Shown: piece after piece, positions 1 through 41,366 of the stretch
Position numbering within the stretch: the stretch's first letter is position 1
Layout: each line of letters opens with the position of its first letter
IMG/VR virus record: IMGVR_UViG_3300044994_000093
Source: a virus
Reading direction: 5' to 3' (one strand)
Length of the DNA stretch: 41,366 nucleotides
The notes under the pieces: generated by a model
Seen by the model: only the letters and a program-made list of their open reading frames with translations
The model's database searches: none
Told to the model about the DNA's origin: nothing
Made by a program: the position numbers and the translations under genes

Positions 1-127
1 CGACGTGAGCCAGCGTCATAGGGCAACGGGTCATCGATACGCGCCCGGCGATCGGTAAACAGCGAGACGATCACTGCCGAATGCAGGTCCTGGCCGGTGG
101 CCAGATCAGCGTTCTCCAGATAGAAAT
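1..127. repeat. Terminal direct repeat. Bases 1-127 are identical to 41240-41366, so the window is a linearised circular or terminally redundant genome with 41239 bp of unique sequence.
   Basis: Read directly: cgacgtgagccagcgtcatagg...gttctccagatagaaat is present at both ends with a constant offset of 41239. Confidence 0.95.
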
Positions 128-13024: not shown

Positions 13025-13233
13025 AGTACGGGTGTGACTCCGCGCACCTGGATGCCACCGGCCGCCTCACGAGAGGCCAGCGAGCGGTAGTGCTTTTCAA
13101 GCTCCAGCAATTCCTTGAGGTTGGCTCGGGTCAGGGAACGGTTGCCAATTGAGTAGGATTGAGCACCGCCCAGGATGGCAGAGATTGCCGCCTGGACCTC
13201 TTCGGCCATTTCTGCATAGGATTTCAAGGCCAC
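13021..13233 (-). CDS. Head-tail joining protein gpW-like
   Basis: 70 aa between TerL and the portal gene, the same size and position as lambda W. Confidence 0.7.
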   Translation of the reverse strand: MALKSYAEMAEEVQAAISAILGGAQSYSIGNRSLTRANLKELLELEKHYRSLASREAAGGIQVRGVTPVL

Positions 13234-13314
13234 GGATAGACCCTCTAGTCATTGGATAGCCCTGATTAAATCAGTTTTAACGTGCCGCTTGTTGAGTCAC
13301 GCCATACGTGCCGA

Positions 13315-15222: not shown

Positions 15223-15664
15223 CGAGCACCTCGTGCGCCATATTTTTAAGCTGCTGGCGCATTTCTTTTAAGCTATCGATGCCAAGTAGTTTATGAGACC
15301 AATCCTGGGAGATGCTATTCACTTTAGATTTCAGGTTGGCCATCAGGGTGAGCCACATGTCTTCCACTTCTGAGACCGGCACCAGAAGGCCTTCAATCTG
15401 TGCCGTTCGCAATTCTTCCCGTTTGGCTTTGGCCTCGGTCATCCGGACCTGGGCCGCATAGAGATCGGCTTTGGTTTTGCCGCCTTCCGGAGAGTGCTCT
15501 TTGTTCAGATTCTGCAGGTACTTGATGTAGCCCTGAACAGACGGCAGTAGCTCATACTGGCCTTGTTTGGCTTTGGGGATAATCCCTTCCTTGGCCAGCT
15601 GCTGAACGCGCCGCTCAGACACACAAAGCAGCTTGGCCATTTGGGAAAGGGAGATTACTGACAT
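15197..15664 (-). CDS. terS: Terminase small subunit (Nu1-like winged HTH)
   Basis: 155 aa. N-terminal HTH LSQMAKLLCVSERRVQQLAKEGIIP, then a coiled coil. Directly upstream of TerL. Confidence 0.75.
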   Translation of the reverse strand: MSVISLSQMAKLLCVSERRVQQLAKEGIIPKAKQGQYELLPSVQGYIKYLQNLNKEHSPEGGKTKADLYAAQVRMTEAKAKREELRTAQIEGLLVPVSEVEDMWLTLMANLKSKVNSISQDWSHKLLGIDSLKEMRQQLKNMAHEVLDELSKTTI

Positions 15665-16890
15665 TAGGCAGCAACGCTATCCCCGTTTTTGGTAATCGTT
15701 AAGTCCGGGAATAAATCGCGCATCCGGGAAACGATGACGTCGCAGTACTTCGGGTCAAGCTCGATGAGCCTTGCTCTGCGGCCCTGCATATGTGCGGCCA
15801 CCATGGTCGAACCGGAACAACCAAAACCATCAAAGACAATCTCACCAGGCTGGCTGCTGTTCTGGATAGCCTTTTCAACCAGCGCAATAGGCTTCATGGT
15901 TGGATGAACACCATTTCTCATCGGCTTGGGAAAATCCCACACGCTCGCTTGATTTCTTCCACCATACCAACGATGAGGGCCACCAGGCTTCCACCCGTAA
16001 AGTATGGGTTCGTGCTGATACTGGTAATCCATTCGCCCCAAAACAATGGAGTTTTTAACCCAGATAAGACACTGCTTAAGCTCCCACTTGGTTCTGACCA
16101 AGGCCGTTCGAAACGCGTGCCACTCGGAGTCGGCATGGCAGACATAGATGCCGCCACCAACAACCGTATAGAGCCTGGCAGATAAATAAAACGCTGACAG
16201 AAATTTCATAAAACTGCTGGCGTCCATTTTGTCGTTCATAATAGTCAGCTTCTCATCGGTCCCGCCCTCATAAGCCACATTGTAGGGTGGGTCTGTAAAT
16301 ACCATTTGCGCTTTTTCATCCCCGAACAGGGCCTTATAGGTATCGAGCTGCGTCGAGTCGCCGCAGATAAGACGATGCGGTCCTATCTGGTAGATATCGC
16401 CAGGTTTGCTGATTGGCTTTTTTGGGGGCTCCGGAACCCGTTCATCGATATCGTCCGGAATATCCAAGATGGGCGTTAATTCGGCTTCAACACCAGCCAC
16501 CAGGCTGGCCAGCTCGTCAGAGCTAAAGCCGAGCATCTCGATGGAATAGCCTTGAGAATCAAGCTTCTGGATTTCATCCGACAAACCCTCCAGATTCCAG
16601 CCTGCCAGTTCTCCCAGCTTGTTATCAGCCAGGCGATAAGCATCGATATCGACTTGCGCCATATCCGAGGCGACGTGTACCGGAACCTTTTCCAGTCCCA
16701 GCTTTAACGCTGCGTGATAACGTACGTGTCCCACAATGATGATATTGGCACTATCGACTACAATCGGTTGGCGGAATCCGAATCGCTTAATTGACTCAGC
16801 AACGTGTGCCACCGCCGATTCAATTTCTCTGGGGTTATTTTCATAAGGCTTAATATCACCAAGCTTCATTTCAATAATTTTCACAACCAT
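15664..16890 (-). CDS. ParB-like nuclease domain fused to a DNA methyltransferase (DPPY motif; N6-adenine or N4-cytosine)
   Basis: 408 aa. ParB-type N-terminus (KPYENNPR...IIVGHVRYHAALKLG), motif IV FTDPPYNV, and a C-terminal SAM-binding motif FDGFGCSGST. Confidence 0.85.
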   Translation of the reverse strand: MVVKIIEMKLGDIKPYENNPREIESAVAHVAESIKRFGFRQPIVVDSANIIIVGHVRYHAALKLGLEKVPVHVASDMAQVDIDAYRLADNKLGELAGWNLEGLSDEIQKLDSQGYSIEMLGFSSDELASLVAGVEAELTPILDIPDDIDERVPEPPKKPISKPGDIYQIGPHRLICGDSTQLDTYKALFGDEKAQMVFTDPPYNVAYEGGTDEKLTIMNDKMDASSFMKFLSAFYLSARLYTVVGGGIYVCHADSEWHAFRTALVRTKWELKQCLIWVKNSIVLGRMDYQYQHEPILYGWKPGGPHRWYGGRNQASVWDFPKPMRNGVHPTMKPIALVEKAIQNSSQPGEIVFDGFGCSGSTMVAAHMQGRRARLIELDPKYCDVIVSRMRDLFPDLTITKNGDSVAA

Positions 16891-16908
16891 CCTCCGTTAT
16901 TTAAATAA

Positions 16909-17235
16909 CTAACACACTGAGATGACAGAGAGCGGATGCAACTTAGCGGTTTGGCATAGCTTGGCAACAAACCGCAAGGCTCCCTCGTAGGAGCCAAAGC
17001 CATTCTCTGGATTAAGTTTTTTATGAAGCTCAGGGTTTTGTATAAAATGCCTGACAGCTAATTGCAGCAAAGGATATGCCTGCTCTCCTGTTTGATTGTG
17101 TAATCCACTGATACCACCGCCGCCTGGGATAGCCGCGTAAAACATAGGGGCGCAGTTGTATGTGTAGCTGAAGCGAGCAATTTCGACAGATCGTCCTGCG
17201 CCGGTATCAATCTCAAAACTGACGTCGTAGCTCAT
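16909..17235 (-). CDS. Hypothetical protein
   Basis: Start chosen at ATG 17235 (AAGAGGG lies 9 nt upstream). The longer track ORF extension is hydrophobic and looks like junk. ATG 17286 is an alternative start. Confidence 0.5.
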   Translation of the reverse strand: MSYDVSFEIDTGAGRSVEIARFSYTYNCAPMFYAAIPGGGGISGLHNQTGEQAYPLLQLAVRHFIQNPELHKKLNPENGFGSYEGALRFVAKLCQTAKLHPLSVISVC

Positions 17236-17326
17236 CGTATCCGCCCTCTTCGTTGCAGAGAAGTAATAAGAGCACCGGTTAGCCATCCCGACGTAAAACA
17301 ACAAATAAAAAAAAGGGTTTCCAGCA

Positions 17327-17521
17327 CTACTCATCCTCCGATTGTTCAGGCTTTTTATATGTGATGATGATTTCACTTTCCAAGACCGTATCCTTACCCA
17401 CGACCAGTTTTTTTAAATGCTCGGTTTTCTGCTTGTCTCTATCACGACAATGTTTTTCAAATTCATCTGATAAGTTCCCGGATTGTAGACTGCTTGGGGT
17501 GGCTTGGTCGTTAGTGGTCAT
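17327..17521 (-). CDS. Hypothetical protein (64 aa)
   Basis: ORF in operon context. No recognisable motif. Confidence 0.45.
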   Translation of the reverse strand: MTTNDQATPSSLQSGNLSDEFEKHCRDRDKQKTEHLKKLVVGKDTVLESEIIITYKKPEQSEDE

Positions 17522-17522
17522 T

Positions 17523-18002
17523 TCAACTTCCTTCTGAATCTTTCATAAAAACTATCCAGTGTGTTTTGCCGTTTTTACCCGTCATTTGGCCTAATAGCGG
17601 TTTTTGATCGGTTAGTTTTATCACTTCAGATACTTTGATATCTGTCTCGTTCCATTTAAATATTAGAGTTCCATTGGGTTTCAGCACCCTGAAACACTCC
17701 CGAAATCCTGCGGTTAATAAAGGCGTAAAATCAGCTGGTAATTTCCCATATTTTTTAACCAGCCATGAATTTCTACCCACCTTCACGAGGTGGGGTGGAT
17801 CAAAGACAACCATATGAAATGAATCATCTTGAAATGGAAGATTTGTAAAATCGCAAACCGTATCAGGGGACACTGTAAATATGCGTCCATCGCAGAGGGT
17901 TTGTGATTCGTGGCGGATATCGCAGAAATGAACCAAGGGGTTAGTTTTATTAAAATAAAACATCTTTCCGCCACAGCAAACATCTAGTACTGTTTTAGAC
18001 AT
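17523..18002 (-). CDS. Small SAM-dependent (DNA) methyltransferase, DPPH motif
   Basis: Motif I VLDVCCGG and motif IV VVFDPPHL. ATG 18002 overlaps the upstream TGA (TGATG). Confidence 0.7.
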   Translation of the reverse strand: MSKTVLDVCCGGKMFYFNKTNPLVHFCDIRHESQTLCDGRIFTVSPDTVCDFTNLPFQDDSFHMVVFDPPHLVKVGRNSWLVKKYGKLPADFTPLLTAGFRECFRVLKPNGTLIFKWNETDIKVSEVIKLTDQKPLLGQMTGKNGKTHWIVFMKDSEGS

Positions 18003-18178
18003 CACTCGCCCACAGCCTCTAACGGTTCAACAGCCGTGACCGTGACACGGGTTGGTTGGCAAGCCTGCATCCGTTTAGTCAGTAGCATGCTTAGAAACGG
18101 GGTTTTGTCGCCTTCCTGTGGAACTGAATTAATCAGCTCACCCTGGGCCGTAAATTTAAAATCAATATAAAACGTCAT
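18002..18178 (-). CDS. Hypothetical 58-aa protein (below the ORF-track size cut-off)
   Basis: Hand translation: MTFYIDFKFTAQGELINSVPQEGDKTPFLSMLLTKRMQACQPTRVTVTAVEPLEAVGE. Fills the gap and is stop/start coupled to the methyltransferase gene. Confidence 0.4.
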   Translation of the reverse strand: MTFYIDFKFTAQGELINSVPQEGDKTPFLSMLLTKRMQACQPTRVTVTAVEPLEAVGE

Positions 18179-28602: not shown

Positions 28603-28636
28603 TTGGTTATTGTTTGTTGGTTAGAGGAGAAGGAAT

Positions 28637-28709
28637 CGCCACCCGCAGGATTCGAACCTGCAACCATCGGCTTTGGAGGCCGCTGCGCTCCCGATTGCGC
28701 CAGGGTGAC
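28637..28709 (-). tRNA. trnW: tRNA-Trp (anticodon CCA)
   Basis: Hand-folded 73-nt cloverleaf: acceptor GTCACCC/GGGTGGC, D arm GCGC-AATCGGGA-GCGC, anticodon arm GCGGC-CTCCAAA-GCCGA (G27:A43 mismatch), variable loop TGGTT, T arm GCAGG-TTCGAAT-CCTGC, discriminator G. CCA is not encoded. Confidence 0.8.
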
Positions 28710-28773
28710 AGAGACAGGGGCCACCGGCCCCGAGGATGGCACGTAGTTCGTAACAGGGAACTCAGACACGGGA

Positions 28774-29685: not shown

Positions 29686-30084
29686 ATGTGGAAATTCGGC
29701 CAATACATAAGCGAACTGCTTTCAGCTAAAGACTGGAATATGGCAAAGCTAGCCAAAGAGGCTGGTTTGTCCCATCAGTACGTCCGATGGGTTGTCAATG
29801 GCGAAACAGCAGACAAGCCAAACCCTCCAAGCATAAGTGTTGACACTCTTCTGTCCCTCTCAAGGGCCTTAGGAGCCAGCCCAATAGCTTTATTGAGGGT
29901 GTATGATGGAAAAAGCCCAGATAGTGACGAGCAACTAGCCCCGGATACCCTTGGATTACTCGCTGATTTTATAGGGAAGCTGCCTCCTGAGGTTGTTATT
30001 CAGGCTTTGGAGCAGCGTTTCCCGGATAAGGACAGCAAAAAGCGTTTTGCACAGAAATACTTTGAAGGTAAAGAAAAGGAATAA
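29686..30084 (+). CDS. CI-like repressor (XRE HTH, no S24 peptidase domain), probably translated from a leaderless mRNA
   Basis: HTH WNMAKLAKEAGLSHQYVRWVVNG. ATG 29686 has no SD and lies 5 nt downstream of TATAGT. Confidence 0.7.
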   Translation: MWKFGQYISELLSAKDWNMAKLAKEAGLSHQYVRWVVNGETADKPNPPSISVDTLLSLSRALGASPIALLRVYDGKSPDSDEQLAPDTLGLLADFIGKLPPEVVIQALEQRFPDKDSKKRFAQKYFEGKEKE

Positions 30085-30088
30085 CGCC

Positions 30089-30625
30089 GTGCCTGCGCTT
30101 ATTATTGGTGCAGTTGTTTTATTGGCCATACTTTGGCAGGTTATTCAGTTCATCTGGCCGATCCTCCTCATCATCTTTATTGTGATTGTTGTCGTTTTCG
30201 TGGCCCAGGTTCTCAGGAATTCTAATGAGCCAACATCGAATGGCGGCATTGAGCTCCGTGCAGAATTTAAGTCAAAACCAGACAATGTAAAAACTGATAA
30301 AGCAATTGAGGCCCAAAAGGGTACGGTATTTGAAGAATGGTGGCGGGTCCGAGATCGCTTGGGATATGAAGATCACTACTCGACTAACGAAGATTTGAGA
30401 GATTCGATTCGTTATGCCATTGGAGTGTGGAAAACCTTGAAAGGGCTTGATACACCTATTCCAGATGAACTTTATATCAAAGCAATTGACGCTATTTTTA
30501 ATAGCCCAGAACTTTTGCAGTATGCAAGTAAATGGAGTGATAGCGTTTACAACCGCCGAACACCATGGCATCGAACTCGCCTAACCCAGAATGATTACTT
30601 TAATCGAGTCGCGTCGCTATTTTAA
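30089..30625 (+). CDS. Membrane-anchored protein co-transcribed with the repressor (two N-terminal TM helices plus a ~130-aa soluble domain)
   Basis: GTG 30089 is 4 nt after the cI-like stop, with AAGGA upstream. TM segments PALIIGAVVLLAILWQVIQFIWPILLIIFIVIVVVFVAQVL. Confidence 0.6.
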   Translation: MPALIIGAVVLLAILWQVIQFIWPILLIIFIVIVVVFVAQVLRNSNEPTSNGGIELRAEFKSKPDNVKTDKAIEAQKGTVFEEWWRVRDRLGYEDHYSTNEDLRDSIRYAIGVWKTLKGLDTPIPDELYIKAIDAIFNSPELLQYASKWSDSVYNRRTPWHRTRLTQNDYFNRVASLF

Positions 30626-30967: not shown

Positions 30968-31243
30968 ATGATTAGCTTAGGGAAGGCTAACACTATGGAT
31001 AATGAGCCAAAATCATTCAAAGAACGATGGAAACGTTCTACTCGCAGCCAAAAGAATGGGTATATTGCTCTGGGTATATCGAGCGCCTTGATAATCGGTA
31101 TGCAATTTACGTTTTTAGGCGGTCTGCCTTGGTGGGTTTACATTCTCTTCTGGCTGATGCTTGCTGGCGGTCTGGCAGGTGCCTTTAATCAGGGTTCTGC
31201 TAATCAAAATCTGGCCGATATGAACAAGTCAGATGAAAAATAG
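30968..31243 (+). CDS. Small two-TM membrane protein
   Basis: TM segments YIALGISSALIIGMQFTFLGGLPWWVYILFWLMLAGGLAGAF. ATG 30995 has the better SD. Overlaps the integrase start by 11 nt. Confidence 0.5.
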   Translation: MISLGKANTMDNEPKSFKERWKRSTRSQKNGYIALGISSALIIGMQFTFLGGLPWWVYILFWLMLAGGLAGAFNQGSANQNLADMNKSDEK

Positions 31244-32792
31244 CAGCTGTTTTCTTTATGCCCGCGTCTCCTCCGACAAGCAAGAGGACGAAGGCTACAG
31301 CATTCCGGCCCAGCTCCGTATGCTCCAGGAGTATGCTGACCGCCAAGGCTTCACAGTGACCGAGGAGTTCATCGACGTTGAAACCGCGAAGCAACCAGGC
31401 CGGTCTGCCTTCAATCGGATGGTTAAGGCACTAAAAGCCAAAAACGCCCCTAAAATCCTCCTAGTGGAGAAAACCGACCGTCTCACCCGTAATTACCATG
31501 ATGAACTAACCATCAACAGCCTTGTGCAGGAACAAGGTGTGTCCGTCCACTACGTCAAAGAAGGCGAGATCATCTGCCAAAACGCCAGCTCCCACACGAA
31601 GCTGATACACAACATCAAAGTGGCCCTCGCCCAGCACTATGTGGACAACCTCTCCGAGGAAATCAAGAAAGGCAAGCGAGAAAAGGCCAAGCAAGGCGGA
31701 TGGTCGAGTAAGGCTCCGCTCGGTTATCAAATGGTCAAGGGTGAGCTCCAGGTGGATCCGGAAGGTGCCGCTTTTGTAAAGAAAGCATTCAGCCTGTTTG
31801 CCTCTGGAATTTACTCACTGCGGGCCTGTGCCGATAAACTCTTCGAATCCGGATTGATTTATAAGCCTGGCATCCCGGTCATCCAAGCCGCCACGCTGCA
31901 GAAAATACTAACGAATCGTCTCTACCTGGGCGAGGTTCACAACAACGGAGAGCGTTACCCAGGCAGGCATCAGCCGCTGGTGGATGAAATCACATTTCAG
32001 CAGGCTCAGAGAGCACTCAGAAAAGACAATAAACCGCTCAGTTACACGGCAAACACCTTTGTGTTCCGTGGCATCGTCAACTGTGGTGAATGTGGCTCGC
32101 CGCTCGTTGGAGAGCTAAAAAAAGGCGGAAAATACACCTATTATCGGTGTGTCACGAAGGCGCACCGCGGGGAATGCTCCCAGGGTTACATCAACGAAAT
32201 CAAGATGTCAGAAGCGGTCAAGCAAACGTTTCTCCGGATTCGCTTTCCGGAACACGTCAAAGATGCCATAGGCCTTGCAGTGGCTGAATCCGACAAAATC
32301 AAACAACGACAGGACGAGCACCAGGCCAGCGAGATTCGCAGAAAACTAACCAACGCCAAAAGCGCAATTCAGCAGGCATACAGAGACCGCACGGCCGGGA
32401 TAATCGACGCTGAATTCTTTCAGGAGCTGGCCGCAGAGTACAAAGAAAAAATCCAAAACTTAGAAATTGAGTTACAGGCCATCGGGAATGCGGATATCGA
32501 TTATTACGAGACCGTTCAAATGTTGTTCGAACTCGGCGAAACCTTGTATTCAAGCTGGATTGCAGGCACTGTGGAAGAAAACGCGTTACTTTTGAAATTG
32601 GTGTGTTCGAACTTTTCTGTCAAAGACGGAAACCCGCTCATTGAGCTGAAAGAACCGTTCCGAACATTGGCCAATACTGGCACTTGTAAACTTTGGTGGA
32701 GCAATAGAGAAGTAGCTCGAACGCTCCTGATACCTCTTCTTACGCAACACTCTGTTACAATTAGAACAATGCATCAAGCCTTGTGTGCCTAA
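31233..32792 (+). CDS. Large serine recombinase (phage integrase)
   Basis: 519 aa. Resolvase catalytic N-terminus FLYARVSSDKQ, recombinase domain, Cys-rich zinc ribbon (CGECGSP...YYRC), and a coiled-coil C-terminus. Confidence 0.85.
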   Translation: MKNSSCFLYARVSSDKQEDEGYSIPAQLRMLQEYADRQGFTVTEEFIDVETAKQPGRSAFNRMVKALKAKNAPKILLVEKTDRLTRNYHDELTINSLVQEQGVSVHYVKEGEIICQNASSHTKLIHNIKVALAQHYVDNLSEEIKKGKREKAKQGGWSSKAPLGYQMVKGELQVDPEGAAFVKKAFSLFASGIYSLRACADKLFESGLIYKPGIPVIQAATLQKILTNRLYLGEVHNNGERYPGRHQPLVDEITFQQAQRALRKDNKPLSYTANTFVFRGIVNCGECGSPLVGELKKGGKYTYYRCVTKAHRGECSQGYINEIKMSEAVKQTFLRIRFPEHVKDAIGLAVAESDKIKQRQDEHQASEIRRKLTNAKSAIQQAYRDRTAGIIDAEFFQELAAEYKEKIQNLEIELQAIGNADIDYYETVQMLFELGETLYSSWIAGTVEENALLLKLVCSNFSVKDGNPLIELKEPFRTLANTGTCKLWWSNREVARTLLIPLLTQHSVTIRTMHQALCA

Positions 32793-32793
32793 A

Positions 32794-33276
32794 ATGCGCG
32801 TTCTGATTCCCATTTTAGCTTTTTTCCTACCTTCAGTATGCTTTGCAGAACCCGTTTGCAAGGTTCACGACGGCGACACGTTTAGGACTTGTTCCGGAAC
32901 CAGCGTCCGGATGAACGGCATCGATGCCCCAGAGCTCAAACAGCCCTATGGATACGTGGCCAGGGATGCTCTCCGGCGTATGATTCTCTATAAAGACGTC
33001 CAGCTCACCTGTAAGGGGAAATCATTTAAAAGACGAGTTTGCACGGCTACTTTGACCGGTCATGATATTGGTGAGGCGATGGTTCAGCAGGGCTATGCCT
33101 TCGATGCTACCCAGTTCAGCAAGGGACGCTACAAAACGAATGAGCGATCAGCACAAGCCAGACGAGTCGGACTTTGGGTGCAGCCCGATGGGGGCATCCG
33201 GCCATGGGACTGGCGCCGAGCACAAAGACAACGATACGCTGACCGTCGAGCAAGCAAGGCAATTGCTGGCGATTGA
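32794..33276 (+). CDS. Secreted staphylococcal-nuclease-like (thermonuclease) protein
   Basis: Signal peptide MRVLIPILAFFLPSVCFA. SNase motifs VHDGDTF and RMNGIDAPE. Confidence 0.75.
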   Translation: MRVLIPILAFFLPSVCFAEPVCKVHDGDTFRTCSGTSVRMNGIDAPELKQPYGYVARDALRRMILYKDVQLTCKGKSFKRRVCTATLTGHDIGEAMVQQGYAFDATQFSKGRYKTNERSAQARRVGLWVQPDGGIRPWDWRRAQRQRYADRRASKAIAGD

Positions 33277-33680: not shown

Positions 33681-33971
33681 ATGATTAAGACATTCGCTAA
33701 CAAGCTCGCCGAAAATCTGTTTCACGGCAGATCATCCAAGGAAACCCGCAAGTTTCCGCATGAGTTGCATCGTCGGTCAGAGCTTTTATTGGATGCCTTA
33801 AACGCTGCCACCGAACTGCAGGACATGGCTTCACCGCCGGGCAACCGACTGGAGAAGCTATCGGGAGAGCTGCAGGACAAGTACAGCGTGCGAATCAATG
33901 ATCAATGGCGGATTGTCTTCCGCTTTGAGAATGGAAACGCCCATGAGGTAGAAATACTCGACTATCACTAG
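33681..33971 (+). CDS. higB: HigB toxin (RelE/ParE superfamily, plasmid maintenance system killer)
   Basis: 96 aa. PPGNRLEKLSGELQDKYSVRINDQWRIVFRFENGNAHEVEILDYH is the recalled HigB signature. Confidence 0.85.
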   Translation: MIKTFANKLAENLFHGRSSKETRKFPHELHRRSELLLDALNAATELQDMASPPGNRLEKLSGELQDKYSVRINDQWRIVFRFENGNAHEVEILDYH

Positions 33972-34038
33972 CAAAACCGACTAGCACCAGGCGCAATTAA
34001 GGTGAAGGATTGGACCAGTAACTAGGAGTTCGTGAGAC

Positions 34039-34326
34039 ATGCGCCCGAAAGAAAGGAAACCAGCTCATCCTGGAGAAATTTTGGAAGAGTTGTATATAAA
34101 GCCCCTTGGTTTAAGCCAAGGACAGATTGCAGCGCACCTTGGTATTCAACGTGGACAATTAAATAATATAATCCACGGCAAACAGGGTGTTACTCCGCGT
34201 CTTGCTCTGCGATTAGCAGACGCGTTTGGTACCACACCAGAGTTTTGGATGAATCTACAATCCAATTGTGAGCTCTGGGAAGCAGCTAGAAAGCATGAAA
34301 GAATCACCGCTTTAGTAGCAGTCTAG
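34039..34326 (+). CDS. higA: HigA antitoxin (XRE HTH)
   Basis: 95 aa. HPGEILEELYIKPLGLSQGQIAAHLGIQRGQLNNIIHGKQGVTPRLALRLADAFGTTPEFWMNLQ. Confidence 0.85.
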   Translation: MRPKERKPAHPGEILEELYIKPLGLSQGQIAAHLGIQRGQLNNIIHGKQGVTPRLALRLADAFGTTPEFWMNLQSNCELWEAARKHERITALVAV

Positions 34327-35183
34327 CCCCACTGGCTGTACGAGCCGAGCTTGCCCTGGCGGAAGAGGGCGCGCTTGGTGTCTCGGTCGATGTTGAAGTC
34401 GGCGGTATCCACGTTCTTAACTGGTGAGGCCAGGTCATACAACCGTGGGTCGATGACCTTGAGCTTGGCGAACCTTGCCAGGGCCATGCGATGACGGGTG
34501 GCTGCCGTCACCTCGTAGGCATAGAGCGCCCGCTTGAGCAAACCATTCGGCGTGGTGTCACCGCCTCGGTTGACTGTGCCAGGGAAGCCAAGGACGATGG
34601 CGGTCACGTCGGCGTCAGCAGGCAGAAAACTCAATGGTGGATGCTCACCAAGGCCGCCATCCATCCAGCGGCGTGAATCGGCTACCAGGCCAGGCAGGGC
34701 CATCGAACGTGTGAGAACCGTGCCAAAGCCCAGGTCCGTGAATGCGTTTTCCACCCATACGGTTTTGACGGTGGCCGATTCAATCACGCCCTCTGGTTTA
34801 CGATGGCAGTAGAGCACCTGGGCGTTGTCTTCCGCATCCCAGGCATTGATGACCAGGCCGTTGACCGGTTCAAGCTGAAGGCTGTCCAGGTAGGCCGCTA
34901 CCCGGTTGAGCTCTACTGGCTTGGCCAGAATGCCAAGCTCTCGAATTTTCCATGGAATCCAGCCGCTCAACAGGCCTTTGAAATCAGACCGCTCGAAAAA
35001 ACTGGCCATCTCCAAAGGGCTCCAGTGATTGGCAGCCAGGGCCGCTACCAGGGCGCCAAATGAATCGCCAGTGATGATGTCATAGCGATGCGGGTGATAG
35101 TGCCCCATCATCTCGCCTGCGCGTAACACGCCAGCCAGGGCGATGCCTCGAACGCCGCCACCGGCGATGGAAAGTGCTTTCAT
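34323..35183 (-). CDS. Patatin-like phospholipase
   Basis: 286 aa from ATG 35183 (ATGA overlap with the endolysin stop). Oxyanion motif GGGVRG, nucleophile GDSFG, catalytic Asp in MDGGLGEH. No signal peptide or TM segment. The upstream part of the track ORF is Arg-rich junk. Confidence 0.8.
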   Translation of the reverse strand: MKALSIAGGGVRGIALAGVLRAGEMMGHYHPHRYDIITGDSFGALVAALAANHWSPLEMASFFERSDFKGLLSGWIPWKIRELGILAKPVELNRVAAYLDSLQLEPVNGLVINAWDAEDNAQVLYCHRKPEGVIESATVKTVWVENAFTDLGFGTVLTRSMALPGLVADSRRWMDGGLGEHPPLSFLPADADVTAIVLGFPGTVNRGGDTTPNGLLKRALYAYEVTAATRHRMALARFAKLKVIDPRLYDLASPVKNVDTADFNIDRDTKRALFRQGKLGSYSQWG

Positions 35184-35611
35184 GGATACGTCCACCGTGC
35201 TCTCTTGGGCCTCGTGTCGATATGGCACCAGGTGTTGGCCTTGCCGTAGCCTCCGGGCCAATTGTCCAGGTCGAGCGTTTTCTGCTCTCTGGCTGAACAA
35301 TCGAAATCGACTGCCGTGGCCAGCAGGTGCTCGCTTTTTTCGCCGCCGCCCGCCTGGGCGTTGGCCACCGGGCAAGAATAGCCGCGATTCGGAACCACCC
35401 GCCTGCCGAGTTTGGAATTAAAGCGTTCCAGGTGCCCGGCCAGGGTTTTGAGGCGCTCTGTGTAGAGTTTTTGCTTGTCGACCGGCAGACACCCAAAGTA
35501 GTCCCAGGAAAGCTGGTCAAACACCCGTCTGCCGTTGATGAGTCGCACAAAAAAGTGTTGCAGCTGGTACTGGGGGCTCAGGTGGTCCGTCAGTTTATAA
35601 ATATGGGGCAT
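35180..35611 (-). CDS. Endolysin, peptidase M15 family (zinc D-Ala-D-Ala carboxypeptidase / L-Ala-D-Glu peptidase type)
   Basis: 143 aa from ATG 35611 (AGGAGG lies 5 nt upstream). Motifs RGYSCPVANAQAGGGEKSEHLLATAVDF and WCHIDTRP. Confidence 0.8.
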   Translation of the reverse strand: MPHIYKLTDHLSPQYQLQHFFVRLINGRRVFDQLSWDYFGCLPVDKQKLYTERLKTLAGHLERFNSKLGRRVVPNRGYSCPVANAQAGGGEKSEHLLATAVDFDCSAREQKTLDLDNWPGGYGKANTWCHIDTRPKRARWTYP

Positions 35612-35624
35612 GGCTGCCTCCTGA

Positions 35625-37055
35625 TTAGGTGAGTGCAGTGACACAGGCCGCGGCGTTGGTTGCGCCGATGGCGACCCCGGCGGCCTTGGGATGAATCTTG
35701 TCGGTCTCGTAGTACGTCGTGTTGGCCGGGTCGTCCCCGTCATCGAAATACTCGTTATTGCCCCACTGGGACAGCGCATTGATGCCATAGGCCGATGGAT
35801 TGGCCTCAACAGCGGCGATTAAGTCCCGGATTTTGGCTGTAATGGCAACCGATGTCCGGGCAATCGGCAGCGAGTACCCCAGAGGCATCCCGTGGTGGTA
35901 ACTTTTCCATTGGGCTGCCAACGCGGTAAGGCGCTCTAAGGTGGTGGCCACCGTCTGGCCATTGGGCAATAAACCGCCAGAGGTATCGGTGGTAAGGTCA
36001 TTGGTGCCAGCGTGAAGCAACCCGATGACGTCGAGTCGTGAGGATTCCGGCACATAAAGATCCGTGGCGATTCTGGCCCAGTGGGTAGTGCGTAGCGTTT
36101 CCAAGGTGGCGCCATCCACTCCCAGGCTGTGAACGTAATCGGTGGCATTACCGCCCAGCTCGACGGCCAGCTTGGCATAGAGCTTGTCGGCTTCGGCCAC
36201 GATGTTGCTGTTGAAGCTGATGGAATCACCGGTTAGCAACACCAGGCGATTGAGCAGTACGCCAGGACGAATGTTCTGGTCGATGTTCTGGGTGAGCCCC
36301 CACATTTGCGCATCCGTCCAAACACCTGGTCCGATTAGTAGCGTGTCAAAATGCCCTAAAAAGAAATTACCAGCGCCTAAATTAGAACCTAAAAGGCTAT
36401 TTTGAGCACGAGAATTGGTGATAGTGGTTCCGCTGCCAACAGCTGACCCAAAGTTCTCAATAGTGCCCACGCGATAGCCGCCTCGATAGAGACGAGCGCG
36501 TCGGTTAATATAATCGACGGTACCGCCGTAAACCTGCCATTTGCTGGCATCGTTTAAATAGCCTGCTGTTGCGGTAGACGTTGTATCCGCGTCGAGTTTT
36601 CTACCTTGGACTTTGACGCCGCTAGCGGTAAGGTTCAAACCGGCCCGGTTGATACTACCCGATGCGGCGGTACTCATTGACCATATGCAACGCTCTGCAG
36701 AAAAATTATCTGATTTTACAAGCGCCAAGACAGAATAACCATTAGCACCATTGAGTAAATCCCTGATAGACGTATCCCCGAACAAATGGCGAGCGCCATC
36801 GAGGTATAACGCTTGTCGGCTGTCTACGCTTTCAGGTAACGGCATTCTGGCATCTGTCATCGTTTCAAAGTAACTAGCCGTGTTTCGACTTGTCCAACGC
36901 TGTACTCGTCCGCCATTAGCTTCTTTAGGCGTTATGCCTTGGGTTGAGTCCATCCAGATAAGCCCAGGAATTGAGAGCGGATCGACAGGACCCAGGCCAG
37001 ACTGGCCCATAAACCCGGATATTCCGGACATTCCCGATAACCCGCTGAGTCCCAT
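35625..37055 (-). CDS. Tail-associated protein with a collagen-like Gly-X-Y N-terminus, a LamG / ConA-like lectin domain, and a C-terminal SGNH (GDSL) hydrolase
   Basis: N-terminus has 7 G-X-Y triplets (GLSGLSGMSGISGFMGQSGLG). SGNH blocks LLTGDSIS, HAGTNDL and DKIHP. The LamG call is by eye only. Confidence 0.65.
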   Translation of the reverse strand: MGLSGLSGMSGISGFMGQSGLGPVDPLSIPGLIWMDSTQGITPKEANGGRVQRWTSRNTASYFETMTDARMPLPESVDSRQALYLDGARHLFGDTSIRDLLNGANGYSVLALVKSDNFSAERCIWSMSTAASGSINRAGLNLTASGVKVQGRKLDADTTSTATAGYLNDASKWQVYGGTVDYINRRARLYRGGYRVGTIENFGSAVGSGTTITNSRAQNSLLGSNLGAGNFFLGHFDTLLIGPGVWTDAQMWGLTQNIDQNIRPGVLLNRLVLLTGDSISFNSNIVAEADKLYAKLAVELGGNATDYVHSLGVDGATLETLRTTHWARIATDLYVPESSRLDVIGLLHAGTNDLTTDTSGGLLPNGQTVATTLERLTALAAQWKSYHHGMPLGYSLPIARTSVAITAKIRDLIAAVEANPSAYGINALSQWGNNEYFDDGDDPANTTYYETDKIHPKAAGVAIGATNAAACVTALT

Positions 37056-37060
37056 GCCGT

Positions 37061-37384
37061 TTAATCCCTATGCATTAATAAATCCTGAATCGTCACCGTA
37101 TTGCGATTAATCGCCTGAGTGCAGTGGTCGACCGCGCTGCATACTTTGGTCATTGCCTCGGTATTGCGTTCGACGATGCCTGCAAACCGGTCCTTGTCGG
37201 CCTTGTGCTCTTCGCACCGGATCCGTAATTCATCACACTTGGAGTCGTTGACCTGCTTGATAAACAGCAACAACTTGGTGACCAATACCGCCACACCGGT
37301 AAAAAAGACACTAATAATGACCGCTAATTGCCCGCCGTACTCACTCAGGGCTTTTAAAATAACTGGATCAAACCCATCCACCAC
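37061..37384 (-). CDS. Single-TM protein with a charged C-terminal domain (holin candidate or fibre-associated membrane protein)
   Basis: 107 aa, GTG start. TM segment LAVIISVFFTGVAVLVTKLLLFI. Confidence 0.4.
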   Translation of the reverse strand: MVDGFDPVILKALSEYGGQLAVIISVFFTGVAVLVTKLLLFIKQVNDSKCDELRIRCEEHKADKDRFAGIVERNTEAMTKVCSAVDHCTQAINRNTVTIQDLLMHRD

Positions 37385-38207: not shown

Positions 38208-39197
38208 TTAAAGCCTCATCATAAATCCAAAGGCAGTGATAAACGCCAGGAAGTCGGTCGTTGTACCGTTCTTGCGCCATTCAAAATCACCGCTGGAATC
38301 GCAAAGAATGATCTGATCCATGTTGACATCACCTGATACGCCACCACCTGTGGTGCCTCGGATGATGGTGCTATGTTGAGGCCCGGTGGAACCCTTAACC
38401 CGTACTTCCAACCGGTCGACACCTGCAGCGCCTGGTGTGGTTTGTGTGTAGGCATCGCCGTGGTATATCAACTCTCGCATGCCTGGGGCGGCTGCTGGCA
38501 CGTACGCGCCGCTGGTACTGGTGCTGTTCCAGGTGCCAGACGTGCCATCCACCGCGTTAACGATGATGCGGTACACATCCCACTGCACTTCTTTGTCCGG
38601 GCCTTTACCACGGCAATAAAACTTGAGAATGTTCCCAGAGCCGTCGGTCTGCACAGCGCCCACCAGGCGCTTATAGGTGGTGTACCCGCTTGGCAGCGTT
38701 GGCGCCGAGAAACTGGTTGAATACACAAACCCGGTACCGGATGCGCCTTTGCACATCCAGACGGCGTACCATGTGCTGTTGGCTTTGGTTCCTGCGTCGA
38801 TGGAATTAATCCCGACGGCCGTGTTGAGTGTCACGTTCTGGGTGCTGGTGATTTCCATCACGGCTGCGCCGGTGGCATCCACACAACGTCCGGTTTGCAT
38901 CTGGATCGTGTTGGCGTTCACCCAGAGCATTTCCAAGCCGTACAGATAGCCCGGAATAATGCCACGCAGGGACTGAATCGCCAGAAACAACTGGTTAAAT
39001 GCGGTTTTATCCAGGGTAATGCCTGCGCCCTCGATGACGTTGGCAATCTCTTCCTGGATGTGATTACACCAGTCCGGCGTTACCAGCGTACCCTTGGGAG
39101 CGCCTGATGTCGGGTACTGGCGAAAATATCCCGGAGTAGCCAGGTCTTCGGGTGTCGGTAAAACGCCAACATTGGTTGTATGGTCAATACGTTGCAC
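38208..39197 (-). CDS. Tail fibre / receptor-binding protein
   Basis: 329 aa. N-terminus TPGYFRQYPTSGAPKGTLVTPDWCNHIQEEIANVIEGAGITLDKTAFNQLFLAIQ is the conserved fibre N-terminal pattern. Follows the gp48-like gene. Confidence 0.7.
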   Translation of the reverse strand: MQRIDHTTNVGVLPTPEDLATPGYFRQYPTSGAPKGTLVTPDWCNHIQEEIANVIEGAGITLDKTAFNQLFLAIQSLRGIIPGYLYGLEMLWVNANTIQMQTGRCVDATGAAVMEITSTQNVTLNTAVGINSIDAGTKANSTWYAVWMCKGASGTGFVYSTSFSAPTLPSGYTTYKRLVGAVQTDGSGNILKFYCRGKGPDKEVQWDVYRIIVNAVDGTSGTWNSTSTSGAYVPAAAPGMRELIYHGDAYTQTTPGAAGVDRLEVRVKGSTGPQHSTIIRGTTGGGVSGDVNMDQIILCDSSGDFEWRKNGTTTDFLAFITAFGFMMRL

Positions 39198-40936: not shown

Positions 40937-41366
40937 TAACGAGTCACCTCCACAACATCCGCCTGGATCTGCTGCCAGGGGTAATCAAAGCGAAACTCCT
41001 CGCGGCCGGTGGGCTTGTCGATGCCGACGAAAATAGCCATGACACCCATGCGCGGATAGGTCACCTCCACATCCACACGGGATGCAACACCGTCCTCGAT
41101 GAGCCATCGCAAGGCTTCCCGGCAATATTCCTGAGCCCTGGCCAGCGTGGCCTGGGTCTGTTTTTCCCGGCTCAACAGCCAGAGTCGGCTGCCGATTCGG
41201 TCACCTTGAATGGGCTCAAAGGTATCGCCCCACCATCCCCGACGTGAGCCAGCGTCATAGGGCAACGGGTCATCGATACGCGCCCGGCGATCGGTAAACA
41301 GCGAGACGATCACTGCCGAATGCAGGTCCTGGCCGGTGGCCAGATCAGCGTTCTCCAGATAGAAAT
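40936..41366 (-). CDS. Baseplate protein Mu gp46-like, 3' part. The true start is at 170, across the circular junction; the M at 41313 in the ORF track is internal.
   Basis: The frame is open to the window end and continues in phase into 1..170. Confidence 0.8.
   Translation of the reverse strand, partial: FYLENADLATGQDLHSAVIVSLFTDRRARIDDPLPYDAGSRRGWWGDTFEPIQGDRIGSRLWLLSREKQTQATLARAQEYCREALRWLIEDGVASRVDVEVTYPRMGVMAIFVGIDKPTGREEFRFDYPWQQIQADVVEVTR
41240..41366. repeat. Second copy of the 127-bp terminal direct repeat
   Basis: Identical to 1..127. Confidence 0.95.

What the first reader, a model, noticed from the sequence alone, without database searches (positions are those of the whole stretch)
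34323..35611. Intact patatin-like phospholipase translationally coupled to the endolysin: candidate lipid-targeting lysis (or effector) module
Seen in sequence:
- The M15 peptidase gene (35180..35611) ends in TGA within ATGA, where the patatin ORF starts (35183). The two are the last genes of the late, minus-strand operon.
- The patatin keeps all catalytic motifs (GGGVRG, GDSFG, DGG) and has no signal peptide or TM segment. The endolysin also lacks a signal sequence.
- I see no spanin-like gene pair and no holin next to the endolysin. The only single-TM candidate (37061..37384) is separated from it by a 1.4-kb LamG-SGNH gene.

Established knowledge: patatin-fold enzymes such as CBASS CapV or ExoU kill by degrading membranes. 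Mycobacteriophage LysB shows that lipid esterases can act as lysis accessories. Phages of Gram-negative hosts normally use spanins or disruptin-type peptides.

Inference: this phospholipase may permeabilise the inner or outer membrane at lysis, taking a holin or spanin role. Alternatively it is a late-expressed toxin or abortive-infection effector. I am not aware of a described endolysin-patatin lysis cassette.
Basis: partly seen in the sequence, partly recalled or inferred. Interest (0 to 1): 0.8.

Follow-up and report, generated by a model that had tools for sequence, protein, structure and literature searches.

The report
Patatin phospholipase inside phage lysis cassettes
A complete 41-kb temperate phage genome ends its late operon with a cell-wall-cutting enzyme fused by a 4-base overlap to an intact lipid-cutting (patatin) enzyme, and the same rare patatin sits beside unrelated cell-wall enzymes in at least six other unrelated uncultured phages, which makes it a strong but untested candidate for a membrane-destroying step of phage escape.

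Summary
The M15_3 peptidase (35180..35611, minus strand) and a 286-aa patatin (34323..35183, minus strand) overlap in ATGA. Both lack hydrophobic segments, and they are the last genes of the late operon of a circular 41.2-kb Mu-like-tailed temperate phage.

The patatin belongs to a small, sharply bounded subfamily: about 26 clusters at 50% identity among 1.84 billion representatives. Ser41 and Asp175 are invariant in 35 members. The AlphaFold2 model is confident and matches CapV, CapE and PlpD.

Of 11 phage-like loci carrying this patatin, 7 have a profile-confirmed peptidoglycan hydrolase within two genes. Three unrelated hydrolase families are involved (M15_3, Amidase_2, GH108), often with 4-bp overlaps. 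Two more loci have a motif-only candidate. Almost nothing else is shared between these phages. I found no lipoprotein (o-spanin or u-spanin) ORF.

Best reading: a lysis-cassette lipid hydrolase, probably acting on the outer membrane in spanin-less phages, as LysB does in mycobacteriophages.

It is not unprecedented. Phage WO of Wolbachia has a hypothesised, untested "patatin-based lytic cassette", but without an endolysin and with a distantly related patatin.

Cellular homologues in Vampirovibrionales, one beside a HEC-02 defence system, keep the toxin or defence rivals alive. No function has been shown.

The parts
34323..35183 (-). Patatin-like phospholipase, 286 aa; last gene of the late operon. 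It has no signal peptide or TM segment.
   Evidence: ORF and translation. Pfam PF01734 at 56.1 bits, cut-off 27.7. AF2 model pLDDT 89.4, pTM 0.90. Foldseek against PDB: CapV, CapE, PlpD and patatin-17, E 1e-10 to 1e-6. Subfamily of about 26 clusters at 50% identity. No hydrophobic segment.
35145..35162 (-). GGGVRG oxyanion-hole / glycine-rich motif (aa 8-13).
   Evidence: Read from the sequence. G8 is invariant, and G9, G10 and R12 are at least 90% conserved in 35 family members.
35055..35069 (-). GDSFG nucleophile elbow; catalytic Ser41 at 35061..35063.
   Evidence: Read from the sequence. S41 is invariant in 35 members. It sits at the strand 36-39 / helix 41-51 junction of the model.
34653..34661 (-). 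DGG motif; catalytic Asp175 at 34659..34661.
   Evidence: Read from the sequence. D175 is invariant in 35 members.
35180..35183 (-). ATGA: the M15 stop (TGA) overlaps the patatin start (ATG).
   Evidence: The same 4-bp overlap of an upstream gene with the patatin start occurs in L002, L021 and L016 (upstream gene is the endolysin or endolysin candidate) and in L001 and L004 (upstream gene is a small ORF).
35180..35611 (-). Peptidase M15_3 endolysin, 143 aa, cytoplasmic (no signal or SAR segment). AGGAGG lies 7 nt upstream of the ATG.
   Evidence: Pfam PF08291 at 34.8 bits, cut-off 23.2. phrog_894 endolysin, 1.6e-11. H-x6-D and H zinc-ligand pattern in the sequence. No hydrophobic segment.
35625..37055 (-). 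476-aa protein with a C-terminal SGNH/GDSL-type esterase domain (aa 276-462). It is packed between the TM gene (5-nt spacer) and the endolysin (13-nt spacer). Its role is uncertain: tail-associated esterase or a second lysis esterase.
   Evidence: Pfam Lipase_GDSL_2 at 31.2 bits, cut-off 32.9. The N-terminal 270 aa have no Pfam hit. No PHROG hit. An unrelated GDSL gene sits at the equivalent place in L002.
37061..37384 (-). 107-aa single-TM protein (TM about aa 19-42) with a charged, Cys-containing, helical C-terminal part. It is a holin-like (or i-spanin-like) candidate.
   Evidence: Hydropathy 2.43 over aa 22-40. No Pfam or PHROG family. Proteins of the same architecture occur in L004, L021, L016, L001 and L018 and in the phage WO cassette, but without detectable sequence similarity.
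34306..34322 (-). Weak terminator-like hairpin immediately after the patatin stop; end of the late transcription unit. The convergent HigA stop overlaps the patatin stop at 34323..34326.
   Evidence: Consensus scan only: 11 terminator-like sites against 7.3 expected in the region. ORF coordinates.

Best explanation
The patatin is a component of the phage's lysis cassette: a soluble Ser-Asp phospholipase/acyl hydrolase made at the very end of the late operon, in step with the endolysin.

Proposed sequence of events (all inferred):
1. The single-TM holin-like protein permeabilises the inner membrane.
2. The signal-less M15 endopeptidase and the signal-less patatin both escape into the periplasm.
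3. The peptidase cuts peptidoglycan cross-links.
4. The patatin deacylates envelope phospholipids, most likely the inner leaflet of the outer membrane. This removes the last mechanical barrier in a phage that has no spanin.

Functionally it would be the diderm counterpart of mycobacteriophage LysB.

Shown here: gene structure, intact catalytic apparatus, patatin fold, late-operon position, and recurrent linkage to endolysins.

Inferred: expression timing, export route, substrate, and which membrane is attacked.
For: 1. Linkage. Among 11 phage-like loci carrying this patatin subfamily, 7 have a profile-confirmed peptidoglycan hydrolase within two genes:
- window: M15_3
- L004/5/6: M15_3
- L016: M15_3 with a 4-bp overlap
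- L025: M15_3, 1-nt gap
- L021: Amidase_2/phrog_822 with a 4-bp overlap
- L023: Amidase_2
- L001: GH108, overlapping the patatin's 3' end
L002 and L018 have a motif-only SLT-like candidate directly upstream. A rough binomial gives P about 3e-6.

2. The phages are otherwise unrelated. In an all-vs-all BLASTP of the loci, the patatin is essentially the only shared protein, and the M15 proteins do not even hit one another at 1e-5. The adjacency is therefore maintained or re-created by selection, not inherited as a block.

3. The enzyme is under catalytic constraint. G8, S41, R81 and D175 are invariant in 35 members. The patatin fold is predicted with confidence.

4. It is part of the late operon, not a moron. 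There is an ATGA overlap and no promoter-like site between the two genes. GC is 57-61%, like the M15 and baseplate genes and unlike the 46-52% of the HigBA/SNase/recombinase region.

5. No lipobox ORF was found in the window or near the other cassettes. Small N-TM proteins are present in most cassettes.

6. Background. About 13% of phages of Gram-negative hosts lack spanins, many of them cyanophages (PMC6139136). The only cellular homologues among 185,579 species genomes are in Vampirovibrionales/Cyanobacteriota MAGs, and one of these (L016) is a prophage-like locus.

7. Independent precedent for the idea comes from phage WO (PMC9203015, PMC3173496).
Against: - There is no functional datum of any kind; guilt by association is the whole case.
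- Two phage loci (L008, L022) carry the gene away from any recognisable lysis gene. L008 has it among DNA-metabolism genes.
- Cellular copies exist outside prophages (L007, L014). One lineage sits next to a HEC-02 defence system. The family is therefore not lysis-specific.
- A cytoplasmic, constitutively active phospholipase would be dangerous before lysis, and no inhibitor or activator has been identified. The nearest structural relatives (CapV, CapE) need a ligand.
- The host of the window phage is unknown, so even the presence of a robust outer membrane is assumed.
- Absence of spanins rests on a simple heuristic.
- Genes placed next to lysis cassettes can be cargo (for example Stx).
Confidence: 0.5

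Rival explanations
1. Cargo toxin or effector. The patatin is a late-expressed phospholipase released by phage lysis. It benefits the lysogen population, for example by attacking prey or eukaryotic membranes. It sits by the lysis genes for co-release, as Stx does in lambdoid phages.
For: - The only cellular homologues are in Vampirovibrionales/Cyanobacteriota MAGs. This is an order that includes algal predators (my own knowledge), where a secreted phospholipase could serve predation.
- Stand-alone chromosomal copies exist (L007, L014).
- Patatins such as ExoU, VipD and PlpD are classic effectors and are among the structural matches.
- The phage is temperate and carries other accessory genes next door: HigBA and a signal-bearing SNase.
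Against: - The protein has no secretion signal.
- It has a 4-bp overlap with the endolysin, GC like the structural genes, and no promoter of its own.
- In L001 and L018 it lies inside the cassette, between the TM gene and the hydrolase.
- It also occurs in L002, a genome with DNA polymerase A and primase and no integrase in the part seen, where lysogenic conversion makes little sense.
Confidence: 0.13
2. The patatin is itself the inner-membrane permeabiliser. It acts from the cytoplasmic face as a holin substitute or lysis trigger, rather than on the outer membrane.
For: - It is cytoplasmic and has no export signal.
- CapV-type patatins kill by degrading the inner membrane from inside, and they are the best structural matches.
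- The 107-aa TM protein is separated from the endolysin by a 1.4-kb gene and has no holin family assignment.
Against: - Most cassettes retain a small single-TM protein, and L023 has a 3-TM protein next to the patatin.
- An enzyme gives poor all-or-none timing compared with holins.
- No regulator has been identified.
Confidence: 0.12
3. Prophage-encoded defence or abortive-infection effector (superinfection exclusion). It would be an orphan relative of the CBASS and other anti-phage phospholipases.
For: - There are weak N-terminal matches to PADLOC phospholipase effectors and to NCBIfam CBASS_lipase and an anti-phage phospholipase model.
- Cellular homologues lie immediately upstream of HEC-02A/B defence genes (1.7e-138 and 2.7e-43).
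- A toxin-antitoxin pair adjoins the gene in the window.
Against: - Scores are far below the family cut-offs (25 vs 200 bits).
- No cyclase or sensor partner is adjacent.
- The gene is the distal, overlapped cistron of the late operon rather than a lysogen-expressed moron.
- The recurrent partner is an endolysin, not a sensor.
Confidence: 0.1
4. Virion-associated entry enzyme. The patatin is packaged or tail-attached and opens host membranes during infection.
For: The gene follows the tail-fibre module. Kent et al. raised 'entry or exit' for the WO patatin (PMC3173496). An SGNH esterase of possible tail function lies two genes upstream.
Against: - Its constant neighbour is the small soluble endolysin, not tail genes.
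- In L008 it is in an early/DNA-metabolism region.
- It has no structural-protein domain or fusion.
Confidence: 0.05

Closest known systems
Phage WO (Wolbachia) 'patatin-based lytic cassette' (Kent 2011, PMC3173496; Bordenstein & Bordenstein 2022, PMC9203015)
   Same: - A patatin-like phospholipase sits at the end of the tail/late region of a temperate myovirus with a large serine recombinase.
- It is accompanied by a small protein with one N-terminal TM and a charged, coiled-coil C-terminus.
- It is proposed to act in cell exit.
- The head-packaging genes of the window are recognisably related to WO: TerL 40% identity, portal 30%.
   Different: - WO has no endolysin, because Wolbachia has little or no peptidoglycan, so its patatin is proposed to replace the endolysin. 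Here the patatin is coupled to one.
- The patatins are related only at superfamily level: 28% over the N-terminal 141 aa, E 2e-4 in a two-sequence comparison.
- The holin-like proteins show no detectable similarity.
- There are no ankyrin genes and no eukaryotic association module here.
- The WO proposal is itself untested.
Mycobacteriophage Lysin B (LysB)
   Same: An ester-hydrolysing lipolytic enzyme encoded beside the endolysin in the lysis cassette. It is soluble, lacks a signal sequence and is released via the holin. It removes the outer lipid barrier after peptidoglycan is cut (established knowledge).
   Different: LysB has a cutinase-like alpha/beta-hydrolase fold with a Ser-Asp-His triad, and it cleaves the mycolyl-arabinogalactan ester of mycolata. 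The protein here has a patatin fold with a Ser-Asp dyad and would act on glycerophospholipids of a diderm envelope.
CBASS phospholipase effectors CapV / CapE
   Same: They are the best structural matches (Foldseek E 1e-10, TM 0.6-0.7). They are of similar size, consist of the patatin domain only, and kill by membrane degradation.
   Different: - The sequence match is confined to about 65 N-terminal residues and reaches 25 bits against a 200-bit family cut-off.
- There is no CD-NTase neighbour.
- The gene is phage-encoded, in a late operon.
- CapV and CapE need a cyclic-nucleotide ligand and form filaments; nothing here bears on activation.
Spanins (Rz/Rz1, gp11) and phiKT gp28 cationic peptide
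   Same: They perform the step proposed here: outer-membrane disruption after holin and endolysin action. The genes lie in or next to the lysis cassette.
   Different: Their mechanisms are non-enzymatic (membrane fusion, amphipathic peptide). No lipobox ORF or spanin pair is present here. The patatin would be an enzymatic solution.

Membership tests
Patatin-like phospholipase (Pfam PF01734) | Profile match above the curated cut-off | tested here: met
   56.1 bits against a cut-off of 27.7, aa 4-184.
Patatin-like phospholipase (Pfam PF01734) | Gly-rich oxyanion motif G-G-G-x-[RK]-G, G-x-S-x-G serine and D-G-[GA] aspartate (Ser-Asp dyad) | tested here: met
   GGGVRG at 8-13, GDSFG at 39-43, DGG at 175-177. 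S41 and D175 are invariant in 35 members.
Patatin-like phospholipase (Pfam PF01734) | Patatin alpha/beta fold | tested here: met
   AF2 pLDDT 89.4, pTM 0.90. Foldseek hits to CapV, CapE, PlpD, patatin-17, iPLA2-beta, VipD and ExoU.
Patatin-like phospholipase (Pfam PF01734) | Acyl-hydrolase activity on (phospho)lipids | not testable with these tools
   Needs an enzyme assay.
CBASS phospholipase effector (CapV; NCBIfam NF041079) | Equivalog score above the cut-off | tested here: not met
   25.3 bits against a cut-off of 200; N-terminal 65 aa only.
CBASS phospholipase effector (CapV; NCBIfam NF041079) | Encoded next to a CD-NTase | tested here: not met
   The neighbours are the M15 peptidase and the convergent HigA. 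No PADLOC hit in the adjacent genes tested.
Phage WO patatin-based lytic cassette | Patatin at the distal end of the tail/late module with a small N-TM, charged-C-terminus 'holin-like' gene nearby | tested here: met
   Gene order. The 107-aa TM protein is at 37061..37384. This is an architecture-level match only.
Phage WO patatin-based lytic cassette | Patatin and holin-like protein orthologous to those of WO | tested here: not met
   28% over 141 aa, E 2e-4 for the patatin. No alignment for the TM proteins.
Phage WO patatin-based lytic cassette | No canonical endolysin; ankyrin-repeat gene in the cassette | tested here: not met
   An M15_3 endolysin is present. No ankyrin domain was found in the Pfam scans of the neighbouring genes.
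Mycobacteriophage LysB | Cutinase-like alpha/beta hydrolase with a Ser-Asp-His triad | tested here: not met
   Patatin fold and Ser-Asp dyad instead.
Mycobacteriophage LysB | Lipolytic gene adjacent to the endolysin in the lysis cassette | tested here: met
   ATGA overlap with the M15 gene. The adjacency recurs in 7-9 of 11 loci.
Spanins (two-component or unimolecular) | Outer-membrane lipoprotein ORF with a lipobox, in or near the lysis cassette | tested here: not met
   No candidate in the whole window, and none credible near the other cassettes. This was a heuristic scan, not a dedicated tool.
Peptidase M15_3 endolysin (the partner gene) | Profile match above the cut-off, zinc-ligand H-x6-D ... 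H, and a phage endolysin family | tested here: met
   PF08291 at 34.8 bits against 23.2. phrog_894 endolysin at 1.6e-11. SEHLLATAVD and WCHID in the sequence.

The most novel reading that the evidence does not exclude
A dedicated subfamily of patatin phospholipases is a previously unrecognised class of phage lysis protein: an enzymatic outer-membrane (or envelope-lipid) disruptor. In spanin-less phages of Cyanobacteriota/Vampirovibrionia and related uncultured diderms it does the job of spanins, and it has been recombined repeatedly next to at least three unrelated endolysin types. It would be the first enzymatic third-step lysis factor for a lipopolysaccharide-type envelope. It would also give retrospective support to the untested phage WO hypothesis.
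Probability: 0.35. Interest if true: 0.85.

Novelty: new variant of a known kind. Interest (0 to 1): 0.62.

Why it matters
How phages without spanins break the outer membrane is an open question. Kongari et al. found none in 91 of 677 phages, 20 of them cyanophages (PMC6139136). Only one alternative, the phiKT gp28 peptide, has been demonstrated.

A lipid hydrolase that is genetically welded to endolysins of different families, in unrelated phages, is a concrete and cloneable candidate for an enzymatic solution. It can be tested directly in the lambda Rz/Rz1 complementation system.

It would also turn the decade-old, untested 'patatin lysis' idea for Wolbachia phage WO into something testable in a tractable setting. 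It would add a membrane-active enzyme to the toolbox of endolysin-based antibacterials against Gram-negative bacteria.

If the rival readings are right instead, the locus is still a clean example of a phospholipase toxin riding on a lysis cassette.

Tried and rejected
- GenBank phages: tblastn with the patatin and megablast with the 8.4-kb region found nothing.
- IMG/VR scan with the family alignment: no confirmed locus.
- The metagenome and genome scans gave only 2 and 3 loci.
- PHROGs has no family for the patatin, the SGNH protein or the TM protein.
- Orthology with the phage WO cassette: rejected.
- CapV membership: rejected on score and context.
- DGR hypothesis for the tail fibre (weak Mtd_2nd hit): rejected, because there is no reverse transcriptase in the window.
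- The SLT-like 193/200-aa proteins of L002 and L018 could not be confirmed as peptidoglycan hydrolases. There is no Pfam, NCBIfam or PDB sequence hit. The only PHROG endolysin hits have E 0.06-0.08. The AF2 model is mediocre (pLDDT 70.8) and Foldseek finds nothing. I therefore count them only as 'probable'.
- Homology among the small single-TM proteins: the alignment shows shared architecture but no conserved columns, so no family claim is made.
- The LamG assignment for the N-terminus of the 476-aa protein is not supported by Pfam.
- PHROG scans of the L008 and L022 neighbours revealed no hidden lysis genes.
- Host assignment of the window phage failed. There is only one tRNA-Trp, and the cluster look-up returned no accession numbers or organism names.
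- Literature searches for spanin-less or 'disruptin' alternatives involving lipases returned nothing relevant beyond phage WO and LysZ/LysB of Corynebacteriales.
Full report
**1. The observation**

Reading the minus strand gives a 143-aa ORF from the ATG at 35611, with AGGAGG 7 nt upstream, to TGA at 35182..35180. A 286-aa ORF runs from the ATG at 35183..35181 to TAG at 34325..34323. The two share the tetranucleotide ATGA.

- The first ORF is a Peptidase_M15_3 protein: 34.8 bits against a cut-off of 23.2, and phrog_894 'endolysin' at 1.6e-11. It shows the H-x6-D ... H zinc pattern.
- The second is a patatin: PF01734 at 56.1 bits against 27.7.
- A hydropathy scan of every ORF in the window finds no hydrophobic segment in either protein.

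Upstream lie a 476-aa protein and a 107-aa single-TM protein.

- The 476-aa protein (35625..37055) has a C-terminal half that matches GDSL_2 just under the Pfam threshold (31.2 vs 32.9 bits). The N-terminal 'LamG' call got no Pfam support.
- The 107-aa protein is at 37061..37384.
- The spacers are 5, 13 and -4 nt, so the four genes form one tight block.

**2. Genome context**

The contig carries an exact 127-bp terminal repeat, so it is a circular assembly of about 41.24 kb. The same phage was assembled as 41,269-bp contigs in two other samples.

It is a temperate myovirus with the following features:
- a Mu-type baseplate (Gp45, Gp46, Gp48, DNA_circ_N);
- YqaJ/RecT, RuvC and a helicase;
- a ParB-methylase fusion;
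- a large serine recombinase.

On the circle the minus-strand late unit runs head, tail, baseplate, fibre, TM protein, SGNH, M15, patatin. It is met head-on by HigA/HigB, a signal-bearing SNase and the recombinase on the plus strand.

The patatin and M15 genes have 57-61% GC, like the baseplate genes. The accessory/lysogeny region has 46-52%. No promoter-like site separates M15 from the patatin, and a weak hairpin follows the patatin stop. 'Last genes of the late operon' is therefore correct.

**3. The protein**

The AF2 model built on 13 homologues is confident (pLDDT 89.4, pTM 0.90). Ser41 sits at a strand-helix elbow. Foldseek finds the CBASS lipases CapV and CapE, PlpD, potato patatin, iPLA2-beta, VipD and ExoU.

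Sequence similarity to all of these is limited to the first ~75 residues. The NCBIfam CBASS_lipase score is 25 bits against a 200-bit cut-off. It is therefore a patatin but not a CapV.

A profile search of 1.84 billion representative proteins shows a sharply bounded subfamily. There are 26 clusters at E<=1e-30, then a gap from 1e-42 to 1e-23 before generic patatins begin. In 35 members G8, S41, R81 and D175 are invariant, and a family-specific TRSMALPGLxAD...DGGxxEHPP signature is nearly so. The enzyme is thus under catalytic selection.

**4. Where relatives sit: the key result**

Contexts were recovered for the following loci.

Phage-like loci with a peptidoglycan hydrolase within two genes:

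| Locus | Arrangement |
|---|---|
| window | M15_3, then patatin, 4-bp overlap |
| L016 (a Cyanobacteriota MAG) | M15_3, then patatin, 4-bp overlap |
| L025 (TARA) | M15_3, then patatin, 1-nt gap |
| L004/5/6 | 65-aa TM, 133 aa, M15_3, 85 aa, patatin |
| L021 | 93-aa TM, 123 aa, Amidase_2 (phrog_822, 4.6e-16), then patatin, 4-bp overlap |
| L023 | Amidase_2, 102 aa, DUF6527, patatin, 3-TM protein |
| L001 | 79-aa TM protein, patatin, GH108, with both junctions overlapping |

L002 and L018 have, directly upstream, a 193/200-aa protein with SLT-like motifs (E-N/C-A-S-L-x-P, GLGQIMG, WWNTG). I could not confirm these by any profile or fold search.

Two phage-like loci show no lysis neighbour:
- L008, where the gene is among Dam, Thy1 and RNR genes;
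- L022.

Cellular contexts are as follows:
- L007: fliD ... purL.
- L014: Vampirovibrionales, downstream of ychF-tdh-kbl.
- L017: patatin convergent with a 637-aa gene on a 2.9-kb contig.
- L009-12 and L015: the patatin is immediately upstream of a HEC-02A/B defence pair (1.7e-138 and 2.7e-43).

An all-vs-all BLASTP of the ORFs of 15 loci shows that the patatin is essentially the only protein they share. Even the M15 peptidases do not hit one another at 1e-5. The adjacency is therefore not a block inherited among close relatives. It is kept or re-created across unrelated genomes, with three unrelated hydrolase families.

Suppose an unrelated gene has a 4/54 chance of lying within two genes of the endolysin. 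Then 7 of 11 loci has P about 3e-6. This is rough, because the loci are not fully independent.

**5. Holin and spanin question**

My lipobox scan found no candidate o-spanin or u-spanin ORF in the window, and none credible near the other cassettes.

Most cassettes contain a small protein with one N-terminal TM and a charged, often Cys-containing, helical tail: window 107 aa, L004 65 aa, L021 93 aa, L016 87 aa, L001 79 aa, L018 71 aa. They share architecture but no alignable sequence. The phage WO 'holin-like' protein has the same architecture. These may be holins or orphan i-spanin-like proteins; that is unresolved.

Other TM ORFs in the window are not assignable to lysis:
- 30968..31243, two TM segments, plus strand, next to the recombinase;
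- 29993..30625;
- small ORFs at about 18.2 kb and 20.6 kb.

**6. Mechanism**

The most economical reading is a three-barrier cassette:
1. A holin-like TM protein opens the inner membrane.
2. The signal-less M15 endopeptidase and the signal-less patatin pass into the periplasm.
3. The patatin deacylates envelope phospholipids, most plausibly the inner leaflet of the outer membrane, and so completes lysis without spanins.

This is what LysB does for mycolata with a different fold and substrate (established knowledge).

- Shown here: gene organisation, intact catalytic machinery, fold, and recurrent linkage.
- Inferred: timing, export, substrate and target membrane.

How a cytoplasmic phospholipase is kept harmless before holin triggering is not explained. 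Position as the last, overlapped cistron (low and late dosage), or a need for an envelope cofactor, are speculations. The unidentified small proteins between endolysin and patatin in L004, L018 and L023 could be regulators.

I put about 0.65 on 'functionally part of lysis' and about 0.35 on the specific outer-membrane role. Confidence in the composite statement is 0.5.

**7. Rivals**

- Cargo toxin co-released by lysis (0.13). This is favoured by the Vampirovibrionales connection and the stand-alone cellular copies. It is disfavoured by the overlaps, the GC content, the position inside cassettes, and presence in a polymerase-encoding phage (L002).
- Cytoplasmic-face inner-membrane permeabiliser or holin substitute (0.12).
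- Prophage defence or Abi effector (0.10). This is favoured by the HEC-02 neighbourhood of cellular homologues and weak matches to anti-phage lipase models. It is disfavoured by the late-operon position and the endolysin partner.
- Virion entry enzyme (0.05).
- A catalytically dead cyclic-nucleotide decoy is essentially excluded by the invariant dyad.

**8. Comparison with what is known**

The literature held here has one close idea: the 'patatin-based lytic cassette' of Wolbachia phage WO (PMC3173496, PMC9203015). It consists of a patatin, a holin-like single-TM protein and an ankyrin protein at the end of the tail module. It was proposed because WO lacks an endolysin and Wolbachia lacks detectable peptidoglycan. 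Related 'Undavirus' prophages have GH108 at that position instead. That proposal has never been tested.

- The window phage shares a related terminase (40% identity), portal (30%) and serine recombinase (23%) with WO.
- Its patatin is only a superfamily-level relative: 28% over 141 aa, E 2e-4.
- The TM proteins do not align.
- The patatin here coexists with an endolysin.
- L001 even combines the patatin with GH108.

The present family therefore shows the patatin as an addition to, not a substitute for, the endolysin. This fits an envelope-lipid role better than an 'endolysin replacement' role.

No paper in the library reports an experimentally supported phospholipase in a Gram-negative lysis cassette. 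Kongari et al. list 91 of 677 phages without spanins, 20 of them on marine cyanobacteria, and leave the mechanism open (PMC6139136).

**9. Verdict**

Novelty: a new variant of a known (and itself only hypothesised) kind.

Interest is 0.62. A lysis specialist would want to clone this. But the hosts are uncultured, the evidence is purely associative, and cellular and defence-adjacent homologues leave real alternatives.

Noticed in passing
window 1..127 and 41240..41366: There is an exact 127-bp direct repeat at the two contig ends, so the window is a circularly closed assembly of a phage genome of about 41.24 kb. The same phage appears as 41,269-bp contigs in two other sequencing runs.
   Followed up: yes
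window 33681..34326 (+): A HigB-like toxin (33681..33971) and HigA-type HTH antitoxin (34039..34326) are convergent with the late operon. The HigA stop and the patatin stop overlap in the palindrome CTAG (34323..34326), so late transcription would run antisense into the TA module.
   Followed up: partly
window 30968..33276 (+): This is the lysogeny/accessory block. It holds a 91-aa two-TM ORF (30968..31243), a large serine recombinase (31233..32792), and a staphylococcal-nuclease homologue with an N-terminal signal-like hydrophobic segment (32785..33276) that overlaps the recombinase stop. GC is 44-52%, against 57-61% for the late genes.
   Followed up: partly
window 35625..37055 (-); L002 5440..6798: An SGNH/GDSL esterase gene is wedged between the holin-like gene and the endolysin, with 5- and 13-nt spacers. 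An unrelated GDSL gene sits just upstream of the cassette in L002. It could be a tail-borne receptor esterase or a second lipolytic/deacetylating lysis enzyme; this is not resolved.
   Followed up: partly
L009-L012 and L015 (e.g. L015 2391..4932): In Vampirovibrionales-type cellular contigs the patatin homologue lies immediately upstream of a HEC-02A/HEC-02B candidate defence pair (PADLOC 1.7e-138 and 2.7e-43). This suggests that some family members work in, or next to, anti-phage defence.
   Followed up: partly
L022 3..2983: Seven consecutive small genes upstream of the patatin all begin with (or contain) the motif M-S-R-Q-[FY]-S-R-L and then diverge. This is an unexplained N-terminal tag family, possibly a targeting or packaging signal.
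   Followed up: no
window 38208..39197 (-): The tail-fibre protein has a weak match to the second domain of the Bordetella phage Mtd tropism determinant (E 3.6e-4, below the cut-off). No reverse transcriptase is encoded in the window, so this is not a diversity-generating retroelement.
   Followed up: yes
window 11456..15222 (-) vs Wolbachia phage WO KX522565 (L013): The large terminase is 40% identical (E 3e-135) and the portal 30% identical to those of phage WO, and the serine recombinase is 23% identical. The tail and baseplate are Mu-like rather than P2-like. This is a distant packaging-module kinship with the only phage group for which patatin-based lysis has been proposed.
   Followed up: partly
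window 15664..18005 (-) and 28636..28710 (-): A ParB-like/N6-DNA-methyltransferase fusion (15664..16890) and a second methyltransferase (17523..18005) lie just upstream of the terminase genes. A single tRNA-Trp (CCA) lies at 28636..28710.
   Followed up: no
L002 7423..8004; L018 2063..2665: These are 193/200-aa proteins directly upstream of the patatin, with SLT-like motifs (E-N/C-A-S-L-x-P, GLGQIMG, WWNTG). They have no hit in Pfam, NCBIfam or PDB, only three homologues in 5.8 billion clusters, and a mediocre AF2 model without fold matches. They may be an undescribed endolysin family.
   Followed up: partly
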